Below are positions 5,904 through 46,457 of a DNA stretch of 50,703 bases, piece after piece. The translations under genes and the position numbers were made by a program. The notes under the pieces are model-generated. The model had not been told where the DNA came from, did not search any database, and saw only the letters and a list, made by a program, of their open reading frames with translations. Source of the stretch: Bacteroidota bacterium. GTDB lineage: Bacteria; Bacteroidota; Ignavibacteria; Kapaibacteriales; UBA2268. The stretch lies in NCBI GenBank assembly GCA_009777815.1, contig WRLB01000002.1, forward strand, positions 1 to 50,703, given 5' to 3'. How positions within the stretch are numbered: the first letter of the stretch is position 1; each line of letters starts with the position of its first letter.

Positions 5904-8780
5904 TTAACCGAACATTTCGCGGAGTTGCTGGCGGATGTCCATTGGGAGAATGACCTTAAATGTGGTTCCTACATTTACTACGCTATCTACATAGATTTTG
6001 CCGAGTAGGTTGTCTACACTTTGCTTTACTATGTGCAAGCCGAGACCTGTCCCCGATATTTTTCCTACATTGCTTGCCCTAAAGAAATTAGAAAATAGTA
6101 GTTTTAAATCCTGTTCAGGGATACCAATACCTTGATCGGCAACGGTAAATATTAGTTCGTTGTCGTTGTTTTTTTCTATAGTAATGGTTACATCTTTGCC
6201 GTTAGTGGTGTATTTGAGTGCGTTTGTGATGAGGTTATGGACAATGTGTTTTATAGTTGGTTCATCTGAATAAAATGGTTTGCATTCGTCTTTAATATTC
6301 ATAACTACGCCGCTTTCATAATGGTATGCTTCACGTATATCTTTTATTGAATTTTCAACAAATAGCACAAAATCCATATCGTTTACAATTTTAACTTTAT
6401 GAGTTTGTCCTTTACCGATTAAAAGCACATCTTCCATCAGTTGATTCATTGTCAGAACGCTCTTATTAATTTTATCTAAATACTGCATTCCGATATCTGC
6501 TCTGTTGCTTTCGAATGCTTGTTCAATTACTCCTGCGGAGTTTAGGATAACTGTTAGTGGCGTTCTAAATTCGTGGCTGACCATAGAAATAAATCTTGTT
6601 TTTAGTTCGTTTAATTCTTTTTCATTTTCTAATGTTTTTTCTAATTTTTCGCCCATTTCTACGAGTGTTTTTTGTGTTTTCATTTGTTCGGTTATTTCGG
6701 CACCTGCCACGATTAAAGTATTTAATTGCCCTAAACTGTTGCTTAATCGGAAGTATTTAGTGAACTCGTTCTTATAATCAATTTCTAATATATAACTTAC
6801 TCCCAATGTATTAGTATCACTGAACCAGTTTTCTATTGTTTGGATGTTTAATTCTTCGCTTCCGTTAATCTTTCCTTTAAGTTTTTCCCAGTGTTTGTCG
6901 CCGATTAACTCGTCTTTTGCAAAACCGACAAGATTTTCTGTATATGGGGTAAGATAGTCAATTCCTCCTTTTTTATTAAATACGACACAAAAACTTGTAG
7001 TTCTTTCTAATATCTCGCTTTTTACTTGTAATTCTTTGGTTAATCTTGCTCTTTGTGCCATTTCGTTTCTTAGGTCTACTAATGTTTTGTTAAGTTTAGA
7101 TGTCCTATCAATTACTCTTTCTTCGAGTTCTTCGTTTAGTCGGACCATTTCGTTTTCAGCAATTTTTCTATCGGTGACATCAACGAAAGTAATTTGTATC
7201 ATTACATCAGTATCAAGGTATAAAACGTTAGAAGCCATATGGACATATTTTTCGGTCCCGTCGAAGCACATAATTTTAATTTCTTGCTCGTTACTATCTT
7301 TGTTATTTTGCTTATTTTGGTCATCTGTTTGGAAGTTTTGTATTTCAAGAACATAATTCCTAAAACTACTTTCTACGAGTTCCGTAAATGGAACAGTTAT
7401 GAACTCTCCTAATGTTTTGCATTTCCATATTTCAAGTAGTGCAGTGTTAGCAAACACGAAAAAATTATCTTTAATCAATCCAATACCTACTATGGAATCC
7501 TCAATCAAAGAACGGTATTTCGTTTCACTTTCTTTGAGTGCCTTTTCGGCAAGCAATGTTTCTGTAATATCATCAATAATAGCAATATAGCCGAACTTTT
7601 TATTATTGTCGTCAAATTCGGCTACAGCAGTTATATTTAAATCTATAGGAATACCATCTTTTCTTCTTCCCATTGCAATAATACGTTCTACTTTATTTGG
7701 TGCATTTAGCGAGATAAATGACTCTTTTACAATGTCTAAATCGGACTTAACAACAAAAGGTAAAACTCGGTCAATAACTTCATATTCTTCATATTTAAAT
7801 ATTTTAGTAAACGAAGGTGATGCTGTTTTTAGTTTAAATTCAGTAGAAAGAGTTAATATAGGTAGCGGTGAAGCATTGATTATGTAGTTAATCATTTTGT
7901 TCGTTGTTTTAAGTTTTTCTTCTGCCATAGTTCTAACTTCAATTTGGTTCCTTAATTGCTGTGTTCTTTGCTCAACTTTTAACTCCATATTTCTATTAGT
8001 ATCCGAAAGTTCAAAATACGAATCCTCCAAATTATTAACCATTTTGTTAAATGTTCTTGCTAATTGCCCGAACTCTTCATTAGTATTAATGGTTGCTCTA
8101 ATAGACAGGTCACCACCTGCAATTCTCCTAAAGGTAGCAAGCAGAACGTTTAACGGTTTAGAGATTAAATTGGAGATAAAAACAGTAGTAAGAATTCCAA
8201 ATAGCAGTATTAACATACATATCATCACTACCCAATATTGCGTATTAGTTATTGTTTTATCCAACTCTTCCATACTAAATACACAACTAATATAGCCACA
8301 TACAACATCTTTATAAACTACTTCAGTATTCACTATATACAATCTTAACGTAGAATCTATTTCATTATCGGTACTATATCCTGGTCTATATAATTGTATA
8401 TGGGGGGGGAAATCATATTTTACTTTTTTAAAGATACTATTTTTCTTATTATTATAGATGAATATATGCGTAGTTATAGGTATCTCCATAACATACTTAG
8501 TTGCAGATTCAAAAATTGTTTTATCTTCTACTAAATCGCTTTCCGATAAATGGAATGCAATTTTATCTGCTGTCATATTTACTATTTTATTATGTATATC
8601 TTTGAAGTCACCTATTAAAACATCTTCCACGACTTTCGGTATCCAGATAGATAGCGATATTGCTACCACTAATATCAGTGTGCTTGTTAAAAGTATTAGT
8701 TGATATTTTTTGCTAATATCGGCAAATTTGATATTTAGTCCAATAACATTAAATACATTTGATTTTTTGATTTTAAACAT
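5904..8780 (-). CDS. Membrane sensor histidine kinase (HAMP, PAS repeats, HisKA, HATPase)
   Basis: Two TM segments flank a periplasmic domain. The H-box is SHEFRTPL, and N, G1 and G2 boxes are present (HNLITNALKYT, DQGIGI, GTGLGL). Confidence 0.9.
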   Translation of the reverse strand: MFKIKKSNVFNVIGLNIKFADISKKYQLILLTSTLILVVAISLSIWIPKVVEDVLIGDFKDIHNKIVNMTADKIAFHLSESDLVEDKTIFESATKYVMEIPITTHIFIYNNKKNSIFKKVKYDFPPHIQLYRPGYSTDNEIDSTLRLYIVNTEVVYKDVVCGYISCVFSMEELDKTITNTQYWVVMICMLILLFGILTTVFISNLISKPLNVLLATFRRIAGGDLSIRATINTNEEFGQLARTFNKMVNNLEDSYFELSDTNRNMELKVEQRTQQLRNQIEVRTMAEEKLKTTNKMINYIINASPLPILTLSTEFKLKTASPSFTKIFKYEEYEVIDRVLPFVVKSDLDIVKESFISLNAPNKVERIIAMGRRKDGIPIDLNITAVAEFDDNNKKFGYIAIIDDITETLLAEKALKESETKYRSLIEDSIVGIGLIKDNFFVFANTALLEIWKCKTLGEFITVPFTELVESSFRNYVLEIQNFQTDDQNKQNNKDSNEQEIKIMCFDGTEKYVHMASNVLYLDTDVMIQITFVDVTDRKIAENEMVRLNEELEERVIDRTSKLNKTLVDLRNEMAQRARLTKELQVKSEILERTTSFCVVFNKKGGIDYLTPYTENLVGFAKDELIGDKHWEKLKGKINGSEELNIQTIENWFSDTNTLGVSYILEIDYKNEFTKYFRLSNSLGQLNTLIVAGAEITEQMKTQKTLVEMGEKLEKTLENEKELNELKTRFISMVSHEFRTPLTVILNSAGVIEQAFESNRADIGMQYLDKINKSVLTMNQLMEDVLLIGKGQTHKVKIVNDMDFVLFVENSIKDIREAYHYESGVVMNIKDECKPFYSDEPTIKHIVHNLITNALKYTTNGKDVTITIEKNNDNELIFTVADQGIGIPEQDLKLLFSNFFRASNVGKISGTGLGLHIVKQSVDNLLGKIYVDSVVNVGTTFKVILPMDIRQQLREMFG

Positions 8781-10629: not shown

Positions 10630-11289
10630 ATGATTAAAGTTAGTGAAATTTTTTGTTCATTGCAAGGTGAAAGCACAAAAATAGGGAAGTTATGTGTCTT
10701 TGTTAGATTAGCAGGATGCAACCTAAATTGTAAATGGTGCGACACCGAATATGCTTCTAATAGCGTAAATGCTAATGAAATGCTCGCAACAGAAATTATT
10801 GATTGCGTAAAAAAATATGATTGTAATTTTGTGGAAATAACAGGCGGCGAACCACTAATACAGAGTGAAACCAAAGAATTAGCCAATAAATTAGTAAAAT
10901 TAGGGTATGAAGTTGCGATAGAAACTAATGGTAGTGTGCTATTAGCGGGGTTAGATAAGGAAATAATAAAGATAATGGATATAAAATGTCCTGCGTCAGG
11001 GATGGCTAAAAATAACCTTTATGAAAATATAAATTACTTAAATAAAAGAGATGAAATCAAGTTTGTAATAGCGAGTAAAGATGATTTTTATTGGAGTATT
11101 GACGTAATAAAAAGGTATAATTTGGATGAAAAAGTAGATAATATCTTGTTTTCAGCAGTAGCATCGGCGATAAGATATAGTGATTTAGCAGAACTAATTT
11201 TGTCGGTAAAAGATGCAAAAATAAGGGAAGTAATTAGAATGCAATTGCAATTACATAAAATAATTTGGGGCAATGAAAAAGGAAGATAA
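10630..11289 (+). CDS. queE: 7-carboxy-7-deazaguanine synthase (radical SAM)
   Basis: The N-terminus reads IKVSEIFCSLQGES, followed by the cluster motif CNLNCKWCDT. Confidence 0.9.
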   Translation: MIKVSEIFCSLQGESTKIGKLCVFVRLAGCNLNCKWCDTEYASNSVNANEMLATEIIDCVKKYDCNFVEITGGEPLIQSETKELANKLVKLGYEVAIETNGSVLLAGLDKEIIKIMDIKCPASGMAKNNLYENINYLNKRDEIKFVIASKDDFYWSIDVIKRYNLDEKVDNILFSAVASAIRYSDLAELILSVKDAKIREVIRMQLQLHKIIWGNEKGR

Positions 11290-11488: not shown

Positions 11489-12607
11489 CTATTTTGAATC
11501 CGTTTCACTTTTTTTATGAAAGAATGAAGAGATTGTTCCTGCTATATTGTGTAAGGGCTGAACTTCGTGTGCAATTTTATTATCTATCACAGAGCCGGGC
11601 ATACCTGCTACAACGCAACTATCTTTTGATTGTGCTATCACATAACCGCCTGCTTTATTTAAGTTATTTAGTGCTATTTGTCCATCATTTCCCATACCCG
11701 TCATTATAATTCCAACTGCTTTATCTTTATATACATCAACTACAGAGTTCACCATAACATTTACAGACGGATTAAATAGTTCGCCTTTAATTTTATCTGT
11801 AACTTGTAATGTATCGTGTTTAGATACGAGCATCTGGTATCCGCCTTTTGCTATATATACTGTTCCTGGTTTTAGTTGGATGCCATCTTCGGCTTCTACA
11901 ACTTTTAAAGCGGAAGTTTGGTCTAACCTATTTGCTAAACTTGCAGTAAAATGTGGTGGCATATGTTGAACTATAAGTATCGGAACAGGATAATTAGCAG
12001 AAATGGCGGGTATTACTTCTTGCAAAGCAACAGGTCCGCCTGTTGAAATGCCTATACAAACAATTTTAATATCTTCGGCTTTTGGTCGGCGTTTATTACC
12101 TGTATAATTAGGCGAAACAAGTGATTGAGTTTTAGGAACTATTTTAGGTTCGGGTTGTATAGCAGTTTGTGTATGACCTGAACGACTAAATTTTGCTTTT
12201 AAGTTTGCTCTAACAAATTTATTAGAACCCCAGGCAACTATTTTTTTTATTAGTTCATCTTTGGCAGTAGATGATTCTTGCGGTGTAGATTCTTTAGATA
12301 CGAAGTCCAATGCTCCGTATTCTAATGCTTTCATTGTAACTTCTGAACCTTCTTTAGATAATGAAGAAAAAACGATAATTGGAGTAGGATTAGTTGCCAT
12401 TACTTGTTTAATTTCTTCTAATCCGTCCATTACGGGCATTTCTATATCTGTAAGAATTACATCGGGGTGGAGTGAGAGATTTTTTTCTACTGCTTCTTTG
12501 CCGTTATTTGCAGTTCCTATTATTTCTATTTCGGGGACTGCTAACATTTTTTTAATAGCGTTCCTCATAAAAATAGAATCATCAACGAGAAGTAATTTTA
12601 CTGCCAT
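11489..12607 (-). CDS. cheB: Chemotaxis response regulator protein-glutamate methylesterase
   Basis: An N-terminal receiver domain (LLLVDDS...DIEMPVMDG) and a C-terminal CheB methylesterase domain (IGISTGGPVAL, HMPP.FT, GMGNDG). Confidence 0.93.
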   Translation of the reverse strand: MAVKLLLVDDSIFMRNAIKKMLAVPEIEIIGTANNGKEAVEKNLSLHPDVILTDIEMPVMDGLEEIKQVMATNPTPIIVFSSLSKEGSEVTMKALEYGALDFVSKESTPQESSTAKDELIKKIVAWGSNKFVRANLKAKFSRSGHTQTAIQPEPKIVPKTQSLVSPNYTGNKRRPKAEDIKIVCIGISTGGPVALQEVIPAISANYPVPILIVQHMPPHFTASLANRLDQTSALKVVEAEDGIQLKPGTVYIAKGGYQMLVSKHDTLQVTDKIKGELFNPSVNVMVNSVVDVYKDKAVGIIMTGMGNDGQIALNNLNKAGGYVIAQSKDSCVVAGMPGSVIDNKIAHEVQPLHNIAGTISSFFHKKSETDSK

Positions 12608-12632
12608 ATTAGTTATCTTTAATTAATTTATA

Positions 12633-12640
12633 CAAAAATA
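12633..12640 (-). promoter_or_regulatory. -7 box for cheB
   Basis: The minus strand reads AAAAAAACATTATTTTTGTATAAA, 26 nt upstream of the start. Confidence 0.5.
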
Positions 12641-12725
12641 ATGTTTTTTTATGAAAAAACCTTTCTATAAAACTTCAGCATATTCTTATAATTTAGGTGG
12701 TGCAAAACTTATTATAGCACATTCT

Positions 12726-14498
12726 CTACGTTCTGTTTGCGTATAATGAGGCACCGTAGGCACCCATTAGTTCGGGAATATTAGAACAAATTACGTTTTG
12801 TTCTACTAATTTTTCTAATGCTTTTATTATGGATTTATTTCTAAATGTTCCGCCCTGAACTACGATATTGCATCCTAATTCAGCAAGATTTTTTATCTTC
12901 AATACTTTATACAAACAATTTTTAACTACTGAGTATGCCAGTCCTGCTGCTATATCTGATATTGTTGCACCTTCACGTAAAAATTGTTTTACTTTTGAGT
13001 TCATAAATACTGTGCAACGAGTCCCTAAATCACAAGGATGGGTAGCAAAACAAGCACAATTTGCAAAATCGGATACGCTGTATTTCAAACTATTAGCAAA
13101 ACCCTCTATAAAACTTCCGCAACCCGAACTACACGCTTCATTTACTTCTAAACGATTTATAGCACCATTATCTACAAATATTGCCTTCATATCCTGCCCA
13201 CCTATGTCCAAAATAAAACTAACATTGTCTTTAAACTTCCTTGCCGCAGTGTAATGTGCTATTGTTTCAACAATACCATAATCAATATTAAATGCAGTTT
13301 TAACAAGGTCTTCGCCATATCCTGTAACAGCACTTTTAGTTATTTTCATTGTTTTTCCTGTTTCGTCTAATTTATTTTGCAACTTTGAAAAGCCATTAAC
13401 TATTGCATCAAGTGGCTTGCCATTATTCTTATTATAATAAGAAAAAACTATATCTTCGTTGCTGTTTATAACGACTATTTTTGTCGTTGTAGAACCCGAA
13501 TCTATACCACAATAAAAGTTATCATTATCGTCTATTTCAGTGATGTCAAGTATCTTAATTTTAGTTTTTTCTTTTTCTTTGTTCCATAAAATAAATTCTT
13601 CTTCGTCATTAAAAAGTATATCTAAACGTTCTGTATAATTGTCCGTATTAACATCACCAAAGTTTTGTATTAAATGTAAAAAATCTGAAATTTTTGTTTC
13701 TAATCTTTGTTCATTTCCTGTTGGTTCATATATAGCACATCCCCAAGCGGGTATGTATTGCGAATGCTCCGACATCACACAATCTTCTTTTTTTAGATTT
13801 AATTTAGACATAAAAAACTTCGGCAACTCTGTCAAAAAAGTTAGCGGACCGCCACAAAAAAATACTTTCGGAACAATATCATATCCTCTTGCTAATGAAG
13901 TTATTGTTTGCAGTGCCACAGCATTAAAGATAGAAGCCGCTATGTCCTCGCGTGAAACATTTTTGGCTATAAGATTTTGCACATCAGTTTTAGTAAATAC
14001 TCCGCATCTTGATGCTATCGGATAGATATTTTTGTAATTGGCAGCAAGTTTATTTATTTCTAATACTTCTATTCCTAACAATGATGCAACTTGGTCTATA
14101 AATGCTCCTGTTCCTCCCGCACAACTTCCGTTCATTCGTATATCGGGGACTTTTCCTTCTTCGAAAAATATCATTTTTGCATCTTCGCCACCAATATCTA
14201 TCAATGTTTTTATGTCGCTATATTTTTGTTTTATTACTTCGGCTGCAGCAAGAACTTCTTGTTTAAAAGGAATATTAAACTTTTCTGCCACTCCCATACC
14301 TGCTGAACCCGTAATTAAAATACTGATATTAGCATCACCTACTTCTTTTTTTGCCTTCAAAAAAGAAGTAGAAAGTGAGTTCAATATATCGGCATTATGT
14401 CGCTGATAGTCCGAAAACACTATATTTCCATCAACAGTAAATACTATTTTTACGGTAGTAGATCCTATATCTATACCTACTCTGTAAAATTGGTTCAT
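12726..14498 (-). CDS. Double BadF/BadG/BcrA/BcrD-type ATPase (acyl-CoA dehydratase activase-like)
   Basis: Two ASKHA-fold modules each start with a GIDxGST(T) phosphate-1 motif (VGIDIGSTTVK, CGIDSGSTTTK). CSSGCGSF matches the cluster-helix Cys of activases. Confidence 0.85.
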   Translation of the reverse strand: MNQFYRVGIDIGSTTVKIVFTVDGNIVFSDYQRHNADILNSLSTSFLKAKKEVGDANISILITGSAGMGVAEKFNIPFKQEVLAAAEVIKQKYSDIKTLIDIGGEDAKMIFFEEGKVPDIRMNGSCAGGTGAFIDQVASLLGIEVLEINKLAANYKNIYPIASRCGVFTKTDVQNLIAKNVSREDIAASIFNAVALQTITSLARGYDIVPKVFFCGGPLTFLTELPKFFMSKLNLKKEDCVMSEHSQYIPAWGCAIYEPTGNEQRLETKISDFLHLIQNFGDVNTDNYTERLDILFNDEEEFILWNKEKEKTKIKILDITEIDDNDNFYCGIDSGSTTTKIVVINSNEDIVFSYYNKNNGKPLDAIVNGFSKLQNKLDETGKTMKITKSAVTGYGEDLVKTAFNIDYGIVETIAHYTAARKFKDNVSFILDIGGQDMKAIFVDNGAINRLEVNEACSSGCGSFIEGFANSLKYSVSDFANCACFATHPCDLGTRCTVFMNSKVKQFLREGATISDIAAGLAYSVVKNCLYKVLKIKNLAELGCNIVVQGGTFRNKSIIKALEKLVEQNVICSNIPELMGAYGASLYANRT

Positions 14499-14591: not shown

Positions 14592-14699
14592 TATGCTGAA
14601 GCAAGTTCAGCATAACAGAATAAAATAACGTGTCATTCCGAACTTGTTTCGGAATCCCCTAATACTATGCAAGGAAATGCCGAAGCAAGTGCGGTATGA
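14592..14699. repeat. Intergenic nested-palindrome elements (full copy plus an extra hairpin)
   Basis: TATGCTGAAGCAAGTTCAGCATA, then TGTCATTCCGAACTTGTTTCGGAATCCCCT...AAGGAAATGCCGAAGCAAGTGCGGTATGA. Confidence 0.8.
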
Positions 14700-17202: not shown

Positions 17203-17357
17203 ATTATATATATTTTATATATTATAACGCACCGCTGTGCATTTATCAAAAAAATAAATTATTTTTTACTGCTGTTCCATATACTATTACTTCTGATGCA
17301 GTTTGCATAATGGAACCCGATTTATTTTCTTTATAAAAATACGATTTTAGTATTTTG

Positions 17358-17431
17358 CACACCCGAAGGGAGTCGAACCCCTAACCTCTTGATCCGTAGT
17401 CAAGCACTCTATCCAATTGAGCCACGGGTGC
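17358..17431 (-). tRNA. tRNA-Arg (anticodon ACG)
   Basis: The reverse complement folds as a 74 nt cloverleaf: GCACCCG-TG-GCTC..GAGT-G-CTTGA-CTACGGA-TCAAG-AGGTT-AGGGG-TTCGACT-CCCTT-CGGGTGT-G. It has a G1-U72 wobble pair, and CCA is not encoded. Confidence 0.9.
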
Positions 17432-17531: not shown

Positions 17532-17599
17532 TATGCTGAATTTATTTCAGCATCTACTAATTTTATGCGAGCAGATTCCGAAACAAGTTCGGAATGACA
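17532..17599. repeat. Intergenic palindromic elements
   Basis: ATGCTGAATTTATTTCAGCAT and GATTCCGAAACAAGTTCGGAATGACA. Confidence 0.8.
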
Positions 17600-17606
17600 G
17601 GGATAA

Positions 17607-17686
17607 CCACCCCGTCATTTGTTGAAGCAAATGCCACCCCTCCACGGGAGTGGAACTGTTCCCCTCCCGTGGAGGGGCAGGGGTGG
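17607..17686 (+). repeat. Cloverleaf-like GC-rich element, copy 2
   Basis: Same orientation and architecture as 10485-10563, with the outer stem CCACCCC/GGGGTGG conserved. Confidence 0.8.
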
Positions 17687-17694
17687 TAAATTAA

Positions 17695-17795
17695 CACGGG
17701 GGCAAGCCCCCGTGCTGAATAAGTAGATTCCGAAACAAGTTCGGAATGACAAGTCATTTATCTGTCATTCCGAACTTATTTCAGCATCTACTAAT
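17695..17795. repeat. Intergenic palindromic elements
   Basis: CACGGGGGCAAGCCCCCGTG, GATTCCGAAACAAGTTCGGAATGACA and TGTCATTCCGAACTTATTTCAGCATC. Confidence 0.8.
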
Positions 17796-17810: not shown

Positions 17811-19466
17811 CTATTCTGTTATTAACTTATCTGAAGTAAGCAATTTATCAATTAGTTCGGTTTTTAAGATACTTAGTTGTTCTTTTATTTCGTTATTGCT
17901 TTTGGAAGTAGCAACCATAACATTTTTGGATTTATCGGCGAGTTTTTTAATTTCGGTTGCGACTACGTTAAAGCCCTTTCCGTATTGTCCTGCACTTGCT
18001 GCTTCTATAGAAGCATTTATAGAGATAAGATTTATATTTCTCGCAATATCGTGCAATGTAGATTGATTTTCGTCTATAGCATGTATTTTTGATTCTACTT
18101 TTGTTAAATTTACATTTAATTGCTGCTTTATTTCGTTAAATGACCGGTGTATTGTTGCATTAGAGTGGAAGAAACATGCTTCTACTTCTGCTTTCTTTGA
18201 AACAACTGCATTAACAAAATTATTACAGGTATGGAAGCCACAGGCATCACAATTATGGTTTCTTTTGCTTTCAGTATCTTTATCTAAAACTTCATAAATG
18301 CGTTCTACTTCACTTGCTCTTGCGACAGGATCAATGTGTTTTTTTGTAGATACATCTTTAATAGATTGTTGTTTGTTACTATAATGTCTTCTAAAATCTT
18401 CAGGGTTAAGTTCATTATCAAACACTGCAAATAAAGATTTAGCATTCTCATCTGCTTTTCTTTGTTCATCGTCTGTTAAGAATTGCTTTTTCATTTGATT
18501 TGTTGCATAATCAATATCATCAAATTCAATATCTTCATTAGTTCCTGTGCCGTGATTACAGCCATGAGGACAATTTAACATATCTACAAGTTGGGGCGTT
18601 GCTTGTCTATTACTTATTCGCTTTTTGAATTCTTTTAAATATTTCAAGTCGTGATGTATCCCTTCAACTTGTTTAATCCATAAAGCAGAATTAGTATAAA
18701 AATCTACATTTTCTTTTAATCCGCCTGGTCTACTAAAAGTAAATCCTAAATTAGAATTTACATTATCAAATTCTTGTTCTTCATAATTTGATAAGTTAAT
18801 TCTATGTTTTTCTAAATATTCTTTTATTTTAGTTGCTGTGACATTGTAATGCACGAAATTATTAGTATTAGGGTCAACAAACTCTATTTCTTTAGCAATA
18901 CAGGGAGAAAACATTGCTATTCTGCCACTGAAATTTTTATACTTTTTCAAATAAATAGCAGCACATAAAGTAGGACTATGAACAGGCGCTAAGTATTGAA
19001 TTAAAGATGGTTCATAATGTTCTATGTAATTAACAATTACAGGACAAGGTTGAGCAATCACTGACCGATTAATATTATGCTCATATAATTTTAGATATGC
19101 CCAAGTTGTAATATCCGCACCAAATGAAATATCATAAACAAGATTAACTCCAATGCTTTTTAAATAACCAATAAGGTTCTTATAATCTTTAAAGTTATGG
19201 AGTAGCGAAGGAGCAATAATTACTGCCATATCATATTTCTTAACATCATTAAAAAATTGTTCTGTATCATCTACAAAATGCCGTGCATTATGTTTGCATA
19301 CTTTTATACATTCTGCACATTGGATACATCTTTCATTAATAATATCAACTTTAATATGATTGTTCTTATCTTTTATCATTTTATTAGCGTAAATAGGGCA
19401 AGCAGAAATGCACCTATTACAGGATTCGCAATTTTCGACTCTAGTTCTAATAGTATTATTAGCCAT
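17811..19466 (-). CDS. 2x[4Fe-4S] ferredoxin plus [FeFe]-hydrogenase-like H-cluster domain plus CxxCGxxxC Fe-S motif plus short methyl-accepting chemotaxis signalling tip
   Basis: Ferredoxin motifs are CESCNRCISACP and CIQCAECIKVC. H-cluster-like motifs are QPCP, SPCIAKEIE (PCxxKxxE) and DMLNCPHGCNHGTG (CxxGCxxG). CDACGFHTC follows. The C-terminus NINLISINASIEAASAGQYGKGFNVVATEIKKLADKS matches the conserved MCP hairpin tip. Confidence 0.85.
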   Translation of the reverse strand: MANNTIRTRVENCESCNRCISACPIYANKMIKDKNNHIKVDIINERCIQCAECIKVCKHNARHFVDDTEQFFNDVKKYDMAVIIAPSLLHNFKDYKNLIGYLKSIGVNLVYDISFGADITTWAYLKLYEHNINRSVIAQPCPVIVNYIEHYEPSLIQYLAPVHSPTLCAAIYLKKYKNFSGRIAMFSPCIAKEIEFVDPNTNNFVHYNVTATKIKEYLEKHRINLSNYEEQEFDNVNSNLGFTFSRPGGLKENVDFYTNSALWIKQVEGIHHDLKYLKEFKKRISNRQATPQLVDMLNCPHGCNHGTGTNEDIEFDDIDYATNQMKKQFLTDDEQRKADENAKSLFAVFDNELNPEDFRRHYSNKQQSIKDVSTKKHIDPVARASEVERIYEVLDKDTESKRNHNCDACGFHTCNNFVNAVVSKKAEVEACFFHSNATIHRSFNEIKQQLNVNLTKVESKIHAIDENQSTLHDIARNINLISINASIEAASAGQYGKGFNVVATEIKKLADKSKNVMVATSKSNNEIKEQLSILKTELIDKLLTSDKLITE

Positions 19467-19537
19467 ATATTTATTTTAATTTACAATAACTTATTAATAA
19501 TTATCGGAATAAAACAGAAAATCTTTAAAAAACATTA

Positions 19538-19545
19538 CAAAAATA
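19538..19545 (-). promoter_or_regulatory. -7 box upstream of the hydrogenase-like gene
   Basis: The minus strand reads GGAAAAACGTATTTTTGTAATG, 72 nt upstream of the start. Confidence 0.4.
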
Positions 19546-19572
19546 CGTTTTTCCTAAAAAATGGGACTGATT

Positions 19573-20274
19573 CTATCCAGTTATAAGAAAGTAAAAACCT
19601 AATATAATTAAAGTAATGCCACCTACATATTTTACAATTAACGAAAATTTGTTGAGCATTTTAGATATTTTACCTAGTCCCAAGCCAACTCCAAGCATAG
19701 CAGATGCAAGCAATCCACCATACCCAAAAGCATAAAAAAGCATCATCAAAAAGCCACCAAATATGTCACCCTTGACAAATATAGTAGCAATGATAAAAGG
19801 ATAAATCGGATTACAGCACATATTGTGAAGTGCCGTTGCGCCACCAACAGTTATGCCAAGCAAAATAGCACTCGCAATACCTACATTTTTATTTTCAAAT
19901 TTGAATAACATTGTAGGAAGTTTGAAAGGCAAAATATCCAGCATATATACTCCTAAAAAAATTATAACAATTCCTGCCACAATGTTCCAATAATTGCCAA
20001 GAGATTCAACAAATAATCCGCCCGCATAACCAATCAAACAGCCAATTATAGACATAGAAACAACAACCCCCATAAGAAAAAATACACTGCTTAATAGAAG
20101 TGTTTTTGTTTTAGTTGTTGCACTCATAGAACTCGTATATCCTGCAACTGAACCAAGCATAGCCAAATTGCACGCACAAGTGAAAACACTAATTATTCCT
20201 AAAAGGAATACTGCGGGAAATACTACTATTCCTGCTTGGTCTACACCTAATATAGAATTAATCCATTCTTGCAT
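19573..20274 (-). CDS. CcdA/DsbD-family (cytochrome c biogenesis-type) thiol-disulfide membrane protein
   Basis: 233 aa, about 6 TM segments, with membrane-embedded Cys pairs FTCACN and NMCCNP. Confidence 0.6.
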   Translation of the reverse strand: MQEWINSILGVDQAGIVVFPAVFLLGIISVFTCACNLAMLGSVAGYTSSMSATTKTKTLLLSSVFFLMGVVVSMSIIGCLIGYAGGLFVESLGNYWNIVAGIVIIFLGVYMLDILPFKLPTMLFKFENKNVGIASAILLGITVGGATALHNMCCNPIYPFIIATIFVKGDIFGGFLMMLFYAFGYGGLLASAMLGVGLGLGKISKMLNKFSLIVKYVGGITLIILGFYFLITG

Positions 20275-20282
20275 AATATCTC

Positions 20283-20498
20283 CTATTTATGTTGGTGAGT
20301 ACAAGTTGAATGTTCTTTATTACAGCATTCGTCAGTGCATTTGTCGGTGTTATAAAAAACTTTATAACATATTAGCGTTACAACTGCTACCATAATTGCA
20401 ATAAACAACCATTTTTTCCATTTAGGTGTTTTTTTGTGTGTTGAGCAACAATTTTCATTACTACAACAATTTTCATTTTGATTATTTTGAATTTCCAT
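20283..20498 (-). CDS. Cys/His-rich single-pass membrane micro-protein
   Basis: The product MEIQNNQNENCCSNENCCSTHKK-TM-NTDKCTDECCNKEHSTCTHQHK starts at Met11 of the listed ORF, because the -7 box at 20526-20533 overlaps the longer start. The gene ends 8 nt before the CcdA-like gene. Confidence 0.6.
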   Translation of the reverse strand: MEIQNNQNENCCSNENCCSTHKKTPKWKKWLFIAIMVAVVTLICYKVFYNTDKCTDECCNKEHSTCTHQHK

Positions 20499-20525
20499 AA
20501 TTATACTTAATAATTGATAAACTCC

Positions 20526-20533
20526 CAAAAATA
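20526..20533 (-). promoter_or_regulatory. -7 box for the Cys-rich peptide/CcdA pair
   Basis: The minus strand reads CGAAAAACGTATTTTTGGGAG, 28 nt upstream of the ATG at 20498. Confidence 0.5.
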
Positions 20534-20603
20534 CGTTTTTCGGGAAAAAATAATATTCATATCTTGCTTACATCTGTAAAGATTTCGCAATCACCGCACA
20601 ATT

Positions 20604-21644
20604 CTACATAAAATATATTACTATTGCTGTAACAACTAAATTTAATATCGCTAATGGCAATAATATATGCCAACCCAAACGCATTAGTTGGTCGTATCTA
20701 AAACGAGGTATAGACCAACGAATCCAAACAATAATAAATACTAATATTGCTACTTTTGATAGTGTAACTATTACTTGCAATAATGCTGTGAGAATTGAAC
20801 CATCGTTCCAATCAACAAAAGGAAGTTGCCAACCACCAAAAAACAATACTACCATTATTATAGATGATGTAGCAACATTTGCATATTCTGCTAAAAAGAA
20901 CATACCGAATCGCATTGAAGAATATTCTGTGTTGTATCCTGCAACGAGTTCTTGTTCGGCTTCAGGGAAATCAAATGGCGTTCTATTTATTTCAGCCAGT
21001 GCGGCAATAAAATAAATTAGAAAAGCAACGGGTTGCAATAATACATTCCACTTCCAACCCGATTGATGTAATATAATATCGTTAGTTCCTAACGAGCCGC
21101 ATACCATAACTACGCTGACAATAGCCATTCCCATAGCAATTTCATATGAAATCATTTGTGCCGAAGAACGAAGTGCACCAAGCATAGAATATTTATTGCT
21201 TGAAGCCCAACCAGCAAGCGTAAAACTATATACGCCAACAGATGTCATCGCCAAAATAAATAGTATGCCGACATTAACATTTGGTGCAATGCCGAGATAA
21301 ATTACTCTGCCGCCAATTTCTATATAATGTGCTAAAGGAACAACAGTATATAATAGTATTGCAACAACAACAGATATAATTGGTGCTATCGCATGAACAA
21401 ATTTATCTGCATCGCGGGGGACAATATCTTCTTTAAAAAACAATTTAAAAACATCGGCGAAGGGCTGTAGCAAACCGAATGGTCCTGTTCTATTAGGACC
21501 CAATCTATCTTGTGCTACGGCGGCTACTCTACGTTCGAGCCACACCGTTAATGCCGCAGTAGTTAATAAATAAATTATAAATACAACACCTTTAATAAGG
21601 GCTTCAATAATGATAAAAAGAGAATCAGGCATATTCTTTAACAA
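20604..21644 (-). CDS. nuoH: NADH-quinone oxidoreductase subunit H
   Basis: LERRVAAVAQDRLGPNRTGPFGLLQPFADVFKLFFKEDIVP plus 8 TM segments. Confidence 0.92.
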   Translation of the reverse strand: MLKNMPDSLFIIIEALIKGVVFIIYLLTTAALTVWLERRVAAVAQDRLGPNRTGPFGLLQPFADVFKLFFKEDIVPRDADKFVHAIAPIISVVVAILLYTVVPLAHYIEIGGRVIYLGIAPNVNVGILFILAMTSVGVYSFTLAGWASSNKYSMLGALRSSAQMISYEIAMGMAIVSVVMVCGSLGTNDIILHQSGWKWNVLLQPVAFLIYFIAALAEINRTPFDFPEAEQELVAGYNTEYSSMRFGMFFLAEYANVATSSIIMVVLFFGGWQLPFVDWNDGSILTALLQVIVTLSKVAILVFIIVWIRWSIPRFRYDQLMRLGWHILLPLAILNLVVTAIVIYFM

Positions 21645-24869: not shown

Positions 24870-26711
24870 TTATTTCCACCAATCTAACTCTAATTCTTCG
24901 AATACGCTGTTTCTTTGCTCGGTTGCGGAGATATAATTTGCATCATTTGGCGATAAATTGCTCTTTCCTTTATATTTTTCGAACAAGTCACATAATTTAT
25001 TAAAATCGGCGTGATGATAAGAAAAACGCTGTTCTGCATAGTCTTTCGCGGAATTAGTGTAAATTAAAAACTGCCAATCAGAAGATTGTAGAAGCAACAA
25101 TTCTTTTAATGCTTGTTTTAGAATTCGCTGTTCGAGTGGATTTAATTTTGCAATTATTTTGTTATGACAATCTTTTATTTTGTCATTCTGAACTTGTTTC
25201 AGAATCCCCTCGTTAGAATTAGGGGATGCCGAAATAAATTCGGCATGACAAGTGTTTTCTTTATCATTTTGCTCTTGATTTAATATCCCTTCAAAAATAT
25301 TATTTAGTCGCAATTCATCGTCATAAATATACTGCCAAGTCCAATTATTACCCGCATTAGACCAAACATCATGATTATTGTTTTCGCCCCAAGAACCCTC
25401 AGGCAAACTTATAACTTGTCGCGGCTTTTGCAAAAATATTTCTTCTGATGCTGTCATCATATTTATATAAGGCGAATTATGCAAGCCCTGACAAACTTTT
25501 CTAATAAATTCCGGACCTTCAAACCACCAATGCCCAAATAATTCCGTATCAAAAGGCAAACAAATAGTTGCTTCTTTGCCCGTTAAGTTCTTATAATAAT
25601 TTGCGGTATTTTCAATGTGATGAATAAAATGATTTGCCTGCTTATCCAATTTATCCCAAATCCAATCAGGATGATATAGCGTTTTATACATCATATCTGC
25701 CTTCGCATCGGTAACACGCCAATAGCGAATGCGAGACGGATAATGCGTTTTATGAAAGTCCAAATAATCAGGTTCAGCAGGATAGCCGATGCTTCCACTC
25801 CACACCTGCATTGATAATTTATGATGGCGAGTAAAACATATAGCCGTTCCATATTCAACCTTTTCGCTCGAACTAACTTCATAAATATTCAATGGCGATT
25901 TATCAAAATTCCAAGGTTCAGGTTTAAATTGCGGCGAATTAATATGAACAAACTTTTCTCTATTATTATCTAAAAACTTTCCAATCGGTTGGCTTCTTTT
26001 TAGCAAATCCTCATCAGTTACAAAATAAAATATCTCATTATCGGCTAATATTTGCTCAACACCTCTCCTTAAATGCTTATGATTAAAGGGATGCACAGGT
26101 ATCAAAGATTTCCACTCGTAAGAAGGACGATAAGCACATTCAGGCAACCAAGTTCCACGTGGATTTCTACCGAAGTGTTTTTTATAATTATTTACTGCTA
26201 ATTTCATTTGCAGATTAACGCTTTTATCGTATCCGAGCAAAGGGAAATATCCATGAGTCGCACCGCAAGTCATTATTTCTATTGCCCCTTTATTTTGTAG
26301 TTCGCGGAGTCCTTTTATTATTGATTTATCATATTTATATATGAAATCATTTTTTCTATTTTGATACCACTCCGCCCACCATTTAGCAAGATAAATGTGA
26401 TGAGCATCATAATTCCAATTCATAAAATTATGATGGTCTTCGAGTGCTGCTGCTGCTTTCTTTTCGCAATACGCAATGAAGATATTTTTAGTATCGGGAT
26501 GTTCCAACTGCTCACATAAAACAGGCGATATATCAAGCGTAATCTTTGGAATTATGCCATCGCCAATAAGTTCATTACACATATTAAGCAGCGGAATATA
26601 ACATTCGGCTATTGCTTCGGTCAGCCAATCTTCTCCGTGAGGCCAAGTTCCATGATGCAGAACAAATGGTAGATGAGTATGAAGTATAAGTATTAGATTT
26701 CCTGCGTGCAT
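24870..26711 (-). CDS. Glycoside hydrolase family 57 (alpha-glucan branching enzyme type)
   Basis: LILHTHLPFV..HG.WPHGEDWL, CGATHGYFPLL, WLPECAY, PFDTELFGHWW and C-terminal LLLQSSDWQFLI. Carries an in-frame repeat-element insertion (see 25181-25250). Confidence 0.9.
   Translation of the reverse strand: MHAGNLILILHTHLPFVLHHGTWPHGEDWLTEAIAECYIPLLNMCNELIGDGIIPKITLDISPVLCEQLEHPDTKNIFIAYCEKKAAAALEDHHNFMNWNYDAHHIYLAKWWAEWYQNRKNDFIYKYDKSIIKGLRELQNKGAIEIMTCGATHGYFPLLGYDKSVNLQMKLAVNNYKKHFGRNPRGTWLPECAYRPSYEWKSLIPVHPFNHKHLRRGVEQILADNEIFYFVTDEDLLKRSQPIGKFLDNNREKFVHINSPQFKPEPWNFDKSPLNIYEVSSSEKVEYGTAICFTRHHKLSMQVWSGSIGYPAEPDYLDFHKTHYPSRIRYWRVTDAKADMMYKTLYHPDWIWDKLDKQANHFIHHIENTANYYKNLTGKEATICLPFDTELFGHWWFEGPEFIRKVCQGLHNSPYINMMTASEEIFLQKPRQVISLPEGSWGENNNHDVWSNAGNNWTWQYIYDDELRLNNIFEGILNQEQNDKENTCHAEFISASPNSNEGILKQVQNDKIKDCHNKIIAKLNPLEQRILKQALKELLLLQSSDWQFLIYTNSAKDYAEQRFSYHHADFNKLCDLFEKYKGKSNLSPNDANYISATEQRNSVFEELELDWWK
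25181..25250. repeat. Nested-palindrome element located inside the GH57 reading frame
   Basis: TGTCATTCTGAACTTGTTTCAGAATCCCCTCGTTAGAATTAGGGGATGCCGAAATAAATTCGGCATGACA has the same architecture as the intergenic copies. It is translated as TCHAEFISASPNSNEGILKQVQND (about aa 487-510). Confidence 0.85.
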
Positions 26712-26821: not shown

Positions 26822-27115
26822 ATGAAAAAACTTATTGTAAGTTTAGTTTGCATCTTTGTTATGATGCTTTTAGTAACTTCCTGTTTTACTCACACTTATA
26901 GTGTTGGTAAAGGAGCACAAACAGGTTTAGAAGTTACAAAGAAAAATTATTACTTGATTTATGGACTTGTTCCAGTAACAACATCAGACCCTACGCAAAT
27001 GTCTGGTGGTGCTTCAGATTATACTGTTACTCACGAATGGACATTCGTTGATGGCTTTATATCTGCAATAACATGCGGTATTTTAAATCCAACAACTACA
27101 ACTGTTAAAAAGTAA
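26822..27115 (+). CDS. Bor/Iss-family-like small lipoprotein
   Basis: Lipobox VTSC. The spacing pattern YLIYGLVP...D...GGA...V......F.DGFISAITCGI..P resembles lambda Bor. Confidence 0.7.
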   Translation: MKKLIVSLVCIFVMMLLVTSCFTHTYSVGKGAQTGLEVTKKNYYLIYGLVPVTTSDPTQMSGGASDYTVTHEWTFVDGFISAITCGILNPTTTTVKK

Positions 27116-35329: not shown

Positions 35330-35394
35330 ATACCGAATTTATTTCGGCATCTCCTCGCATAATACAAGGGATGCCGAAACAAGTTCGGTATGAC
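35330..35394. repeat. Full nested-palindrome element overlapping the 5' end of the lpxK frame
   Basis: ATACCGAATTTATTTCGGCATCTCCTCGCATAATACAAGGGATGCCGAAACAAGTTCGGTATGAC. Confidence 0.85.
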
Positions 35395-42419: not shown

Positions 42420-42442
42420 AAAGTTCATATATCTTCCATACT

Positions 42443-46372: not shown

Positions 46373-46373
46373 G

Positions 46374-46457
46374 TACTCCAGATGGGACTTGAACCCACAC
46401 GTTGTTGCCAACACAGGATTTTAAGTCCTGAGCGTCTACCAATTCCGCCACCGGAGT
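46374..46457 (-). tRNA. tRNA-Leu (anticodon TAA)
   Basis: The reverse complement folds as ACTCCGG-TG-GCGG-AATTGGTAGA-CGCT-CAGGA-CTTAAAA-TCCTG, then a long variable arm, then GTGGG-TTCAAGT-CCCAT-CTGGAGT-A. It has an A1-U72 pair and discriminator A, and CCA is not encoded. Confidence 0.9.

What the first reader, a model, noticed from the sequence alone, without database searches (positions are those of the whole stretch)
17811..19466. [FeFe]-hydrogenase-like sensory module fused to a minimal chemoreceptor tip
One 551 aa soluble protein combines four parts. (i) Two CxxCxxCxxxC(P) ferredoxin motifs. (ii) A hydrogenase large-subunit-like domain that keeps the Cys of the three H-cluster signatures (QPCP in place of TSCCP, SPCIAKEIE = PCxxKxxE, DMLNCPHGCNHG = CxxGCxxG). 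The first Cys of the CC pair, the proton-relay Cys of catalytic enzymes, is replaced by Pro, as expected for a sensor rather than an enzyme. (iii) A CxxCGxxxC accessory Fe-S motif. (iv) A C-terminal stretch of only about 115 residues (my count) containing the near-invariant MCP hairpin tip (SINASIEAASAGQYGKGFNVVATEIKKLADKS). That is far shorter than a normal MCP cytoplasmic domain and has no obvious methylation helices. Chemoreceptor-linked hydrogenase-like proteins are a predicted class without biochemical characterisation. Seeing one in a T9SS-bearing FCB-group genome, about 5 kb from an orphan cheB, suggests H2 or redox taxis input.
Basis: partly seen in the sequence, partly recalled or inferred. 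Interest (0 to 1): 0.8.

Follow-up and report, generated by a model that had tools for sequence, protein, structure and literature searches.

The report
Hydrogenase-like sensor with minimal chemoreceptor hairpin
This gene encodes a soluble iron-sulfur protein built like a hydrogen-sensing [FeFe] hydrogenase and fused to an unusually short chemoreceptor signalling hairpin; it belongs to a class predicted in 2016 (Group C2) that nobody has tested biochemically, so it is real and interesting but not a new kind of thing.

Summary
ORF 17811-19466 (-) encodes a 551 aa soluble protein. It has a 2x[4Fe-4S] ferredoxin domain, an [FeFe]-hydrogenase H-domain (Pfam E 1e-32; Foldseek top 50 all [FeFe] hydrogenases), a Cx2Cx4Cx16C cluster and an MCP tip (E 1e-15).

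All H-cluster Cys and the Lys/Glu/Pro of the 2Fe pocket are invariant in 117 homologs. The positions of CpI C299/M353/M497 are Pro/Ser/Leu, the published signature of sensory hydrogenases.

The architecture is HydDB's "[FeFe] Group C2, chemotactic (putative)", defined in 2016. It occurs in at least 524 species genomes, mostly Bacillota.

What is unusual:
- The hairpin has only 60+58 helical residues (about 17 heptads). That is shorter than 24H, the shortest recognised MCP class.
- It has no methylation consensus: 0/54 short forms against 43/65 long forms.
- The query's clade has no relative above 49% identity among 185,579 species genomes.
- The host is an Ignavibacteria/Kapabacteria-like FCB bacterium.

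The cheB 5 kb away is not linked. It is stand-alone in relatives too, and this hairpin offers it no substrate site.

A relative with a longer hairpin in a Calditrichales genome heads a cheA-cheW-cheB-cheR operon. This supports Che-type output for the family.

Verdict: new member of a known but uncharacterised class, with a poorly described short-hairpin subtype.

The parts
17811..19466 (-). Whole gene: 551 aa soluble [FeFe]-hydrogenase-like chemoreceptor (stop codon 17811-17813)
   Evidence: AF2 model: mean pLDDT 88.9, pTM 0.82.
19284..19439 (-). N-terminal 2x[4Fe-4S] ferredoxin-like domain (residues 10-61; Cys 13, 16, 19, 23 and 47, 50, 53, 57)
   Evidence: Fer4_7 E 4e-7. All eight Cys are invariant or nearly so in 117 homologs.
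18540..19229 (-). H-domain (residues 80-309), the [FeFe]-hydrogenase large-subunit fold
   Evidence: Fe_hyd_lg_C E 1.2e-32. PDB phmmer best hit 7p5h_A, 2.4e-17. Foldseek top 50 hits are all [FeFe] hydrogenases, probability 1.00.
19041..19052 (-). L1 motif Q139-P140-C141-P142. C141 is a [4Fe-4S]H ligand (CpI C300 position). P140 replaces the proton-relay Cys (CpI C299).
   Evidence: Aligned to TSCCP of TmHydA. QPCP is invariant in 117/117 homologs and in every genome locus examined.
18882..18908 (-). L2 motif S187-P-C189-x2-K192-x2-E195. C189 is a ligand. S187 replaces CpI M353. The Lys and Glu of the 2Fe pocket are kept.
   Evidence: S, P, C, K and E invariant. PMC10055695 reports Gly, Ser or Thr at this position in sensory enzymes.
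18546..18584 (-). L3 motif D295-x-L297-N-C299-x2-G-C303-N-x-G-T307. C299 is a ligand and C303 the bridging ligand. L297 replaces CpI M497.
   Evidence: TamHydS also has Leu and Ser at these two Met positions (PMC8163306).
18252..18539 (-). [quoted passage not shown]
   Evidence: AF2 helices H315-337, 345-352, 366-374 and 380-393, with pLDDT dips to about 70.
18174..18251 (-). C-terminal accessory cluster motif C406-x2-C409-x4-C414-x16-C431
   Evidence: PF04060 E 7e-7. All four Cys are invariant. The spacing is identical to the Cx2Cx4Cx16C motif of group C/D sensory hydrogenases (PMC8163306).
17814..18173 (-). MCP signalling hairpin (residues 432-551): N-arm helix 432-491, turn at 492, C-arm helix 493-550; about 17 heptads; no methylation consensus
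   Evidence: AF2 secondary structure. Continuous a/d periodicity. MCPsignal profile positions 23-94/172 only. Methylation motif present in 0/54 short forms and 43/65 long forms.
17928..18032 (-). Conserved hairpin tip (residues 479-513), the expected CheA/CheW contact region
   Evidence: PDB hits to MCP tips 2ch7, 3ja6, 3ur1_C and 4jpb_B covering query 460-528. N484, A485, G496, F499 and L509 are invariant. S491 and Q494 replace the canonical Arg and Glu.
19467..19572 (-). 106 bp AT-rich upstream intergenic region; may hold the gene's own promoter (weak evidence)
   Evidence: One search shows TATTTTTG about 75 nt upstream of the ATG (it resembles the Bacteroidota -7 box TAnnTTTG; own knowledge). 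The sigma-70-like site count is no higher than in shuffles.

Best explanation
The gene encodes a cytoplasmic chemoreceptor of the putative sensory [FeFe]-hydrogenase Group C2, in a short-hairpin subtype. Inferred working model: (1) The H-domain binds a complete H-cluster. This needs HydE/F/G encoded elsewhere in the genome. (2) Its second coordination sphere is of the sensory type: Pro for the proton-relay Cys, Ser and Leu for the two Met. It therefore reacts with H2 slowly, acting as a sensor and not as a metabolic enzyme. (3) The two N-terminal [4Fe-4S] clusters connect the H-cluster to the cellular ferredoxin pool. The occupancy and redox state of the site therefore report H2 partial pressure relative to cellular redox state. 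(4) The H2-dependent change is passed through the helical linker and the C-terminal Cx2Cx4Cx16C cluster domain. Its last ligand, C431, sits immediately before residue 432, the first residue of the signalling helix. This alters the packing of the four-helix bundle formed by a homodimer. (5) The conserved tip modulates a CheA-type kinase through CheW. (6) The hairpin has only about 17 heptads and no methylation sites, so adaptation cannot use CheR/CheB. The signal would reset through re-oxidation. Shown here: domain identity, ligand conservation, the sensory-type substitutions, hairpin length, absence of methylation sites, and operon linkage of a family member to cheA-cheW-cheB-cheR. Inferred: cofactor content, H2 as the signal, the coupling route, and the partner kinase.
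For: Domain and fold identity. All H-cluster Cys plus P86, K192 and E195 are invariant, and P140/S187/L297 are fixed, in 117 homologs and across genome loci. This matches the substitutions described for sensory enzymes (PMC10055695; PMC8163306). TmHydS and TamHydS, which carry comparable substitutions, do bind an H-cluster and turn over H2 slowly. C431 abuts helix 432-491 in a confident model. In Calditrichales MX18-03 and two Bacillota MAGs, a family member is followed co-directionally by CheA-REC, CheW, CheB and CheR. Long forms carry a positionally conserved methylation consensus (43/65 against 2.9 expected by shuffling), so the family contains genuine methyl-accepting receptors. The window's CheB has a receiver domain, which implies a CheA in the genome (established Che biochemistry). 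The cultured relative Ignavibacterium album has a full che/flagellar set, hydEFG and [FeFe] hydrogenases (PMC3362086). Receptor-tip fragments of 85-90 residues (3ur1_C, 4jpb_B) were crystallised with CheA-P4P5/CheW (own knowledge). A hairpin this short can therefore in principle bind the kinase complex.
Against: No hydE/F/G, cheA, cheW, cheR or flagellar gene is in the 50.7 kb window. No Group C2 protein has been characterised biochemically. The hairpin is shorter than every recognised MCP heptad class. It carries Ser and Gln where canonical tips have Arg and Glu, so incorporation into arrays is uncertain. No short-form gene examined lies near che genes. In TamHydS (group D), H2 does not reduce the C-terminal [4Fe-4S] cluster, and the H2-induced structural change does not depend on it (PMC13104023). 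A simple redox switch at that cluster is therefore unlikely; it may act only as a structural joint.
Confidence: 0.6

Rival explanations
1. It is an energy or redox sensor, not an H2 sensor. The protein reports the reduction state of the ferredoxin pool through its N-terminal clusters, and the H-cluster site acts only as an electron sink or buffer. The output is energy taxis, as with Aer-type receptors.
For: The intact, invariant 2x[4Fe-4S] relay is the ferredoxin-facing module of catalytic enzymes. In TamHydS, H2 reduces an N-terminal cluster and not the C-terminal one. The state of the N-terminal clusters could therefore be the sensed variable.
Against: Invariant conservation of the whole 2Fe pocket and the bridging Cys across all family members would not be needed for a pure ferredoxin sensor. 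The two readings overlap, because H2 and ferredoxin equilibrate through the site.
Confidence: 0.18
2. It is an Fe-S-only sensor with no [2Fe] subcluster. In a host without HydEFG, the H-domain would hold only the [4Fe-4S] cubane (like eukaryotic Nar1/NARF-type proteins; own knowledge) and would sense O2, NO or oxidative stress through cluster damage.
For: No maturase gene is in the window. The only radical-SAM protein (10630-11289, 219 aa) is too small and lacks the HydE/HydG architecture (own knowledge of their sizes).
Against: K192, E195, P86 and the bridging C303 are invariant. Characterised sensory relatives bind the full H-cluster. The cultured lineage relative has hydEFG.
Confidence: 0.08
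3. The short hairpin does not work as an array receptor. It may be a relic that no longer couples to a kinase, or a soluble modulator that binds or titrates CheW/CheA outside arrays, or it signals to a different partner.
For: The hairpin has about 17 heptads against a 24H minimum. The canonical Arg and Glu of the tip are replaced. Short forms show no che synteny. Six roughly 430 aa sensor modules would sit only about 9 nm above the baseplate of a trimer of dimers (inference from helix length).
Against: The tip and the a/d core are strongly conserved within the query clade over 47-79% identity and across 54 short forms. This indicates purifying selection on a protein-interaction surface. The gene's GC content matches its host (0.303 vs 0.315).
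Confidence: 0.12
4. It is a catalytically relevant hydrogenase that uses the MCP tip only to localise to chemoreceptor arrays or the cell pole.
For: The full set of cluster ligands is present.
Against: The proton-relay Cys is replaced by Pro, and the glutamates of the group A proton pathway are not aligned. Relatives with comparable changes have very low turnover.
Confidence: 0.02

Closest known systems
[FeFe]-hydrogenase Group C2, 'chemotactic (putative)' (HydDB; Sondergaard et al. 2016, PMC5037454)
   Same: The architecture is identical: 2x[4Fe-4S] domain, H-domain, C-terminal Fe-S motif and MCP signalling domain. Full-length homology to Sporomusa, Clostridia and Lachnospiraceae members reaches 33-49% identity with E down to 1e-155.
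   Different: The hairpin has about 17 heptads instead of the roughly 24H-like hairpin of most members, and it has no methylation consensus. The query's clade is not represented among species genomes. The host is an Ignavibacteria/Kapabacteria-like FCB bacterium, whereas most members are from Bacillota.
TmHydS, Thermotoga maritima sensory [FeFe] hydrogenase (Group C, M2f; Chongdar et al. 2018; PMC10055695)
   Same: N-terminal 2x[4Fe-4S] domain, an H-domain with the proton-relay Cys and both Met replaced, a C-terminal Cx2Cx4Cx16C cluster, and a signalling domain after it.
   Different: The output domain is PAS in TmHydS and an MCP hairpin here. TmHydS has Ala/Gly/Ser at the three positions where this protein has Pro/Ser/Leu.
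TamHydS, Thermoanaerobacter mathranii (Group D, M2e; PMC8163306, PMC13104023)
   Same: The same Ser and Leu at the M353 and M497 positions, and the same C-terminal cluster motif.
   Different: TamHydS has no fused output domain, and it has Ala where this protein has Pro at the C299 position.
Soluble cytoplasmic chemoreceptors and the 24H MCP class (MiST classes, PMC6943060; 24H PAS-containing receptors of Vibrio cholerae, PMC7534058)
   Same: A cytoplasmic cofactor-binding sensor is joined directly to a signalling hairpin without transmembrane segments or HAMP. The long forms of this family have 24H-like arm lengths.
   Different: This hairpin is about 7 heptads shorter than 24H. It covers only 42% of the Pfam MCPsignal profile and lacks adaptation sites.
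Regulatory [NiFe] hydrogenases (Group 2b, HoxBC/HupUV with HoxJ kinase)
   Same: The same functional logic: a crippled hydrogenase serves as an H2 sensor that controls a kinase.
   Different: The metal site and fold are unrelated. That system is a two-component transcriptional output, not a Che-type one.

Membership tests
[FeFe] hydrogenase (H-domain, PF02906) | Significant match to the H-domain profile and fold | tested here: met
   113.9 bits against a cutoff of 22.1. Foldseek top 50 hits are all [FeFe] hydrogenases.
[FeFe] hydrogenase (H-domain, PF02906) | Four Cys ligating the H-cluster (CpI C300, C355, C499, C503) positionally conserved | tested here: met
   C141, C189, C299 and C303 align to the L1-L3 motifs of TmHydA and are invariant in 117 homologs.
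[FeFe] hydrogenase (H-domain, PF02906) | 2Fe-pocket residues that hold the CN/CO ligands (Lys and Glu of L2, Pro of the APA/S motif) | tested here: met
   K192, E195 and P86 are invariant.
[FeFe] hydrogenase (H-domain, PF02906) | HydE/HydF/HydG maturases in the same genome | not testable with these tools
   None is in the 50.7 kb window and the rest of the genome is not available. The relative I. album has them.
[FeFe] hydrogenase (H-domain, PF02906) | H2 binding or turnover | not testable with these tools
   Needs expression, maturation and FTIR/EPR/activity assays.
Sensory [FeFe] hydrogenases (Groups C/D) | Proton-relay Cys (CpI C299) not conserved; M353 replaced by Gly, Ser or Thr; M497 variable | tested here: met
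   P140, S187 and L297, compared with the frequencies in PMC10055695 and with TamHydS.
Sensory [FeFe] hydrogenases (Groups C/D) | C-terminal Cx2Cx4Cx16C cluster motif after the H-domain | tested here: met
   C406, C409, C414 and C431 have exactly this spacing and are invariant. The motif is as stated in PMC8163306.
[FeFe] Group C2 (chemotactic, putative) | MCP signalling domain fused C-terminally to the sensory hydrogenase module | tested here: met
   MCPsignal scores 58.1 bits against a cutoff of 34.6. The protein is a full-length homolog of proteins that sources name MCP or [Fe-Fe] hydrogenase domain protein.
[FeFe] Group C2 (chemotactic, putative) | Assignment by the HydDB k-NN classifier or placement in its reference tree | not testable with these tools
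   The HydDB classifier and reference set are not available here.
Methyl-accepting chemotaxis proteins (PF00015) | Conserved hairpin tip and antiparallel coiled-coil hairpin | tested here: met
   The tip core N484, A485, E488, G493, G496 and F499 is kept. S491 and Q494 deviate from the canonical Arg and Glu.
Methyl-accepting chemotaxis proteins (PF00015) | Membership in one of the 12 heptad classes (24H to 64H) | tested here: not met
   60+58 helical residues are about 17 heptads, and the shortest class is 24H. Class-specific HMMs were not available, so this rests on length only.
Methyl-accepting chemotaxis proteins (PF00015) | Methylation sites ([ASTG]2-x2-[EQ]2-x2-[ASTG]2) | tested here: not met
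   There are none in the query or in any of 54 short forms. They are present in 43/65 long forms.
Methyl-accepting chemotaxis proteins (PF00015) | Cognate CheA and CheW in the genome, and control of CheA | not testable with these tools
   Neither is in the window. Support is indirect: CheB with a receiver domain in the window, and a che operon next to a family member in Calditrichales.

The most novel reading that the evidence does not exclude
The ~17-heptad, methylation-free hairpin, joined directly to the last Cys ligand of an Fe-S cluster, is a distinct and so far unclassified minimal class of chemoreceptor signalling domain (below 24H). It would still control a CheA-type kinase and adapt through cofactor chemistry instead of methylation. 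In an Ignavibacteria-like host it would give H2-guided behaviour to a lineage not known for it.
Probability: 0.3. Interest if true: 0.65.

Novelty: new member of a known kind. Interest (0 to 1): 0.42.

Why it matters
How sensory [FeFe] hydrogenases pass on their signal is unresolved. No bacterial H2 chemoreceptor has been demonstrated biochemically. Group C2 proteins are abundant in gut and sediment anaerobes and are used as markers in H2-cycling surveys (for example the 2026 Crohn's disease preprint), yet their function rests only on domain architecture. This 551 aa soluble member is close to the smallest natural form of the idea: sensor, one joint cluster, and a bare signalling tip with no adaptation region. 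That could make it, or its Clostridia-type short cousins, a convenient construct for structural and reconstitution work. It also extends the class to an under-sampled FCB lineage.

Tried and rejected
1. Locating the source genome failed. The exact protein is not on record. Peptide-pattern scans of 185,579 species genomes gave no hydrogenase-MCP relative above 49% identity. The methylmalonyl-CoA mutase reached only 39% to a Kapabacteria MAG. hydEFG and cheA/cheW therefore could not be checked in this genome.
2. A functional link between cheB and the receptor was rejected. There is no synteny in relatives and the hairpin has no methylation site.
3. An operon with the upstream DsbD_TM, Cys-rich and NuoH-like genes is not supported. 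The neighbourhood is not conserved in the closest homologs.
4. The short C-terminus as a truncation or frameshift artefact was rejected. 54 homologs end at the same place. Downstream DNA holds palindromic repeats and a tRNA, not coding sequence.
5. Recent horizontal acquisition is not indicated by composition (gene GC 0.303 vs window 0.315). Ancient transfer from Bacillota remains possible.
6. A redox switch at the C-terminal cluster as the signalling step was downgraded after reading PMC13104023.
7. Cys-Cys and inter-cluster distances could not be measured because model coordinates were not exposed. A dimer could not be modelled with the tool.
8. Rfam found nothing structured around the gene apart from tRNA-Arg. 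The sigma-70 promoter scan was no better than shuffles.
Full report
OBSERVATION. The window has a 551 aa ATG-initiated ORF at 17811-19466 on the minus strand. Its N-terminus aligns with those of its closest homologs. Four Pfam families pass their curated thresholds: Fer4_7 (residues 12-61), Fe_hyd_lg_C (80-306, E 1.2e-32), the 'putative Fe-S cluster' family PF04060 (405-432) and MCPsignal (452-523, E 1.3e-15). MCPsignal covers only profile positions 23-94 of 172. NCBIfam gives sub-threshold partial matches to monomeric and group A [FeFe] hydrogenases and to several chemoreceptors. The protein has no hydrophobic segment that could span a membrane.

FOLD. The AlphaFold2 model was built on 89 homologs and is confident (mean pLDDT 88.9, pTM 0.82). 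Foldseek against the PDB returns only [FeFe] hydrogenases in the top 50: HydABC alpha subunits, CbA5H, DdH and CpI, with probability 1.00 over about 440 aligned columns. Sequence search of the PDB gives the same enzymes for residues 8-267 and chemoreceptor tips (2ch7, 3ja6, 3ur1, 4jpb, Tsr, Aer) for residues 452-529.

THE ACTIVE-SITE POCKET. In the alignment to T. maritima HydA, TSCCP pairs with AQPCP. The first Cys, the proton relay (CpI C299), is therefore Pro140, and the cluster ligand (C300) is C141. MPCxxKxxE pairs with SPCIAKEIE, and ExMxCxxGCxxG pairs with DMLNCPHGCNHG. In a MAFFT alignment of 117 full-length homologs, several residues are invariant: all eight ferredoxin Cys, P86, Q139-P-C-P142, S187-P-C189, K192, E195, D295, L297-N-C299, G302-C303-N304 and G306. 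[AS]QPCP also appears in every genome locus examined. The literature describes exactly this pattern for putative sensory enzymes. The ligating Cys and the residues that H-bond the [2Fe] site are kept. C299 is Cys in only 17% of sequences (Ala 43%, Pro about 10%). M353 becomes Gly, Ser or Thr, and M497 is variable (PMC10055695). TamHydS has Ser and Leu at the two Met positions (PMC8163306). Conservation of the whole 2Fe pocket argues that the family binds a real H-cluster. The Pro/Ser/Leu triad argues that it is not a fast enzyme.

THE JOINT AND THE HAIRPIN. This is the Cx2Cx4Cx16C motif of the C-terminal [4Fe-4S] cluster of group C/D enzymes. In the model, C431 is followed directly by a 60-residue helix (432-491), a turn at 492 and a 58-residue helix (493-550). 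The a/d periodicity is continuous. That is about 17 heptads. MCPs are classified into twelve heptad classes, and the shortest is 24H (PMC6943060).

Homologs fall into length classes. Relative to the short form, the common 'long' form (about 635-650 aa) has about 63 extra residues in the N-arm and about 29 in the C-arm. Measured from the last cluster Cys to the tip and from the tip to the C-terminus, the arms are:
- short forms: 63-66 / 48-65 residues;
- the majority: about 129 / 84-93 residues;
- three loci: 178 / 127 residues;
- two Spirochaetales loci: about 198 / 150-182 residues.

The strict methylation consensus occurs in 43 of 65 long forms, inside the C-arm extension. About 2.9 would be expected from shuffled sequences. 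It occurs in 0 of 54 short forms. The query thus keeps only the protein-interaction tip and part of the flexible bundle. The tip core (N484, A485, E488, G493, G496, F499, L509) is conserved. Ser491 and Gln494 stand where long forms and canonical receptors have Arg and Glu. Their equivalence to Tsr R388 and E391 is my own knowledge.

DISTRIBUTION AND HOST. All but one of the 120 best database hits carry both the hydrogenase and MCP domains. A pattern scan finds at least 524 loci in species-representative genomes. Most are Bacillota (Lachnospiraceae, Clostridia, Sporomusa, Desulfitobacterium, Desulfosporosinus). Others are Melainabacteria, Spirochaetales, one Calditrichales, and one Acidobacteriota and one Deltaproteobacteria MAG. 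None exceeds 49% identity to the query, and no Bacteroidota or Ignavibacteria appear among the best 80.

A neighbour-joining tree of the sensor part gives three clades: the query with nine metagenome-only short forms, the long forms, and a Clostridia-type short clade. The query clade lies outside the other two. The tree has no support values and is midpoint rooted. Shortness is therefore either ancestral or arose twice.

The host is an FCB bacterium. Two proteins carry T9SS sorting domains. CheB's best named relatives are Ignavibacteria (63%) and Kapabacteria MAGs. The mutase's best genome hit is a Kapabacteria MAG at only 39%. The cultured relative Ignavibacterium album has a complete flagellar and che gene set, two [FeFe] hydrogenases and hydEFG, but only one ordinary MCP (PMC3362086).

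CONTEXT. The neighbours in the window are unrelated. Upstream on the same strand lie a DsbD_TM protein, a Cys-rich 81 aa protein and a lone NuoH-like protein. Downstream lie palindromic repeats, tRNA-Arg and a methyltransferase. cheB lies 5.2 kb away beyond five unrelated genes. cheB homologs at 63-89% identity are likewise stand-alone. The closest hydrogenase-MCP homologs have different neighbours, as do Clostridia-type short forms and a Sporomusa long form.

The 89% CheB homolog and the 79% receptor homolog come from the same metagenome sample. This is consistent with a sister organism that has both genes.

In Calditrichales bacterium MX18-03, the family member with the 178/127 hairpin (MCPsignal profile 7-164/172) is followed co-directionally by a CheA-receiver hybrid, CheW, CheB and CheR. 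A GGDEF protein and CheX lie next to them. The same operon occurs in two Bacillota MAGs with the same hairpin length. The other roughly 86 loci have no cheA or cheW within 10 kb. This is the only direct genomic evidence found here that the family feeds Che-type kinases. It concerns a long-hairpin subtype at 38% identity. The CheA-REC plus GGDEF context resembles Wsp-type systems (own knowledge). The output may therefore not always be motility.

MECHANISM. The best-supported model is a cytoplasmic H2 (or H2-versus-ferredoxin) sensor whose state is transmitted to a CheA-type kinase through the hairpin tip, without methylation-based adaptation. The shown and inferred steps are listed under 'best explanation'. 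One caution applies. In TamHydS, H2 does not reduce the C-terminal cluster, and the H2-induced structural change is independent of it (PMC13104023). The C-terminal cluster here is therefore more likely a rigid joint between sensor and helix than a redox switch.

The rivals are a ferredoxin-pool or energy sensor, an Fe-S-only stress sensor in a host without maturases, a non-array or vestigial tip, and a localised enzyme. The available sequence excludes none of the first three.

COMPARISON AND NOVELTY. The architecture is HydDB's [FeFe] Group C2, 'chemotactic (putative)' (PMC5037454). It is cited as such in later surveys. No biochemical study of a C2 protein was found in the held literature. The characterised sensory enzymes are TmHydS (PAS output) and TamHydS (no output domain).

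This protein passes every sequence-level test for the [FeFe] hydrogenase family, for the sensory groups and for C2. As an MCP it passes the profile, tip and hairpin tests. It fails the heptad-class and methylation-site tests. I file it as a new member of a known, uncharacterised class. The short hairpin subtype, the unrepresented clade and the FCB host are real but incremental. Interest is moderate, about 0.4, not 0.8.

Noticed in passing
window 14632-14656, 17574-17598, 17726-17750, 17764-17788, 25182-25206, 35370-35394: A 25 nt palindromic repeat (GTCATTCCGAACTTGTTTCGGAATC) occurs six times with up to 3 mismatches, against 0 expected. Three copies lie just downstream of the receptor gene. 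There they score as terminator-like hairpins and create the spurious 64 aa ORF at 17563-17757.
   Followed up: partly
window 17357-17431 (-) and 46373-46457 (-): tRNA-Arg(ACG) lies about 380 nt downstream of the receptor gene, and tRNA-Leu(TAA) lies further on. These are the only Rfam or ARAGORN hits in the window.
   Followed up: yes
window 19573-21644 (-): Directly upstream on the same strand lie a lone NuoH-like protein (PF00146, E 1e-121) with no other nuo genes, an 81 aa Cys/His-rich protein with no family match (CCSNENCCS...CTDECCNKEHSTCTHQH), and a DsbD_TM/CcdA-like membrane protein. This is an odd trio of unknown relation to each other or to the receptor. It is not conserved next to the closest receptor homologs.
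   Followed up: partly
window 11489-14498 (-): cheB (receiver + methylesterase) is stand-alone and sits 118 nt downstream of a 590 aa double BcrAD/BadFG-type ATPase. cheB homologs at 63-89% identity in related metagenome contigs are also stand-alone among housekeeping genes. Scattered che genes therefore seem to be a trait of this lineage.
   Followed up: partly
L033 9944-19772 (Calditrichales bacterium MX18-03); same arrangement in L042 and L045: A family member with a longer hairpin heads a hyd-MCP, CheA-REC, CheW, CheB, CheR operon, with a GGDEF protein and CheX adjacent. The layout is Wsp-like and hints at H2-controlled c-di-GMP signalling instead of taxis in that subtype.
   Followed up: partly
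family-wide (loci L001-L097): The same QPCP sensor module is fused to hairpins of discrete lengths (C-arms of about 56, 84-93, 127 and 150-182 residues). This suggests the signalling hairpin has been exchanged to match different host chemosensory classes.
   Followed up: partly
window 18963-18965 (-), residue C168: A seventeenth Cys, in the motif HSPxLC, is not part of any cluster motif yet is invariant in all 89 aligned homologs. Its role near the H-domain core is unexplained.
   Followed up: no
window 26822-27115 (+): A 97 aa protein matches the phage lambda Bor lipoprotein family (E 1.5e-18), which is unexpected in an FCB-group genome.
   Followed up: no
window 40386-46048: Two T9SS cargo proteins carry C-terminal sorting domains: an M1 peptidase (677 aa) and a 1201 aa protein with five Flg_new_2 repeats and a GLUG motif.
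   Followed up: no
window 5904-8780 (-): A 958 aa HAMP-PAS histidine kinase is the only other signalling protein in the window besides CheB and the receptor.
   Followed up: no
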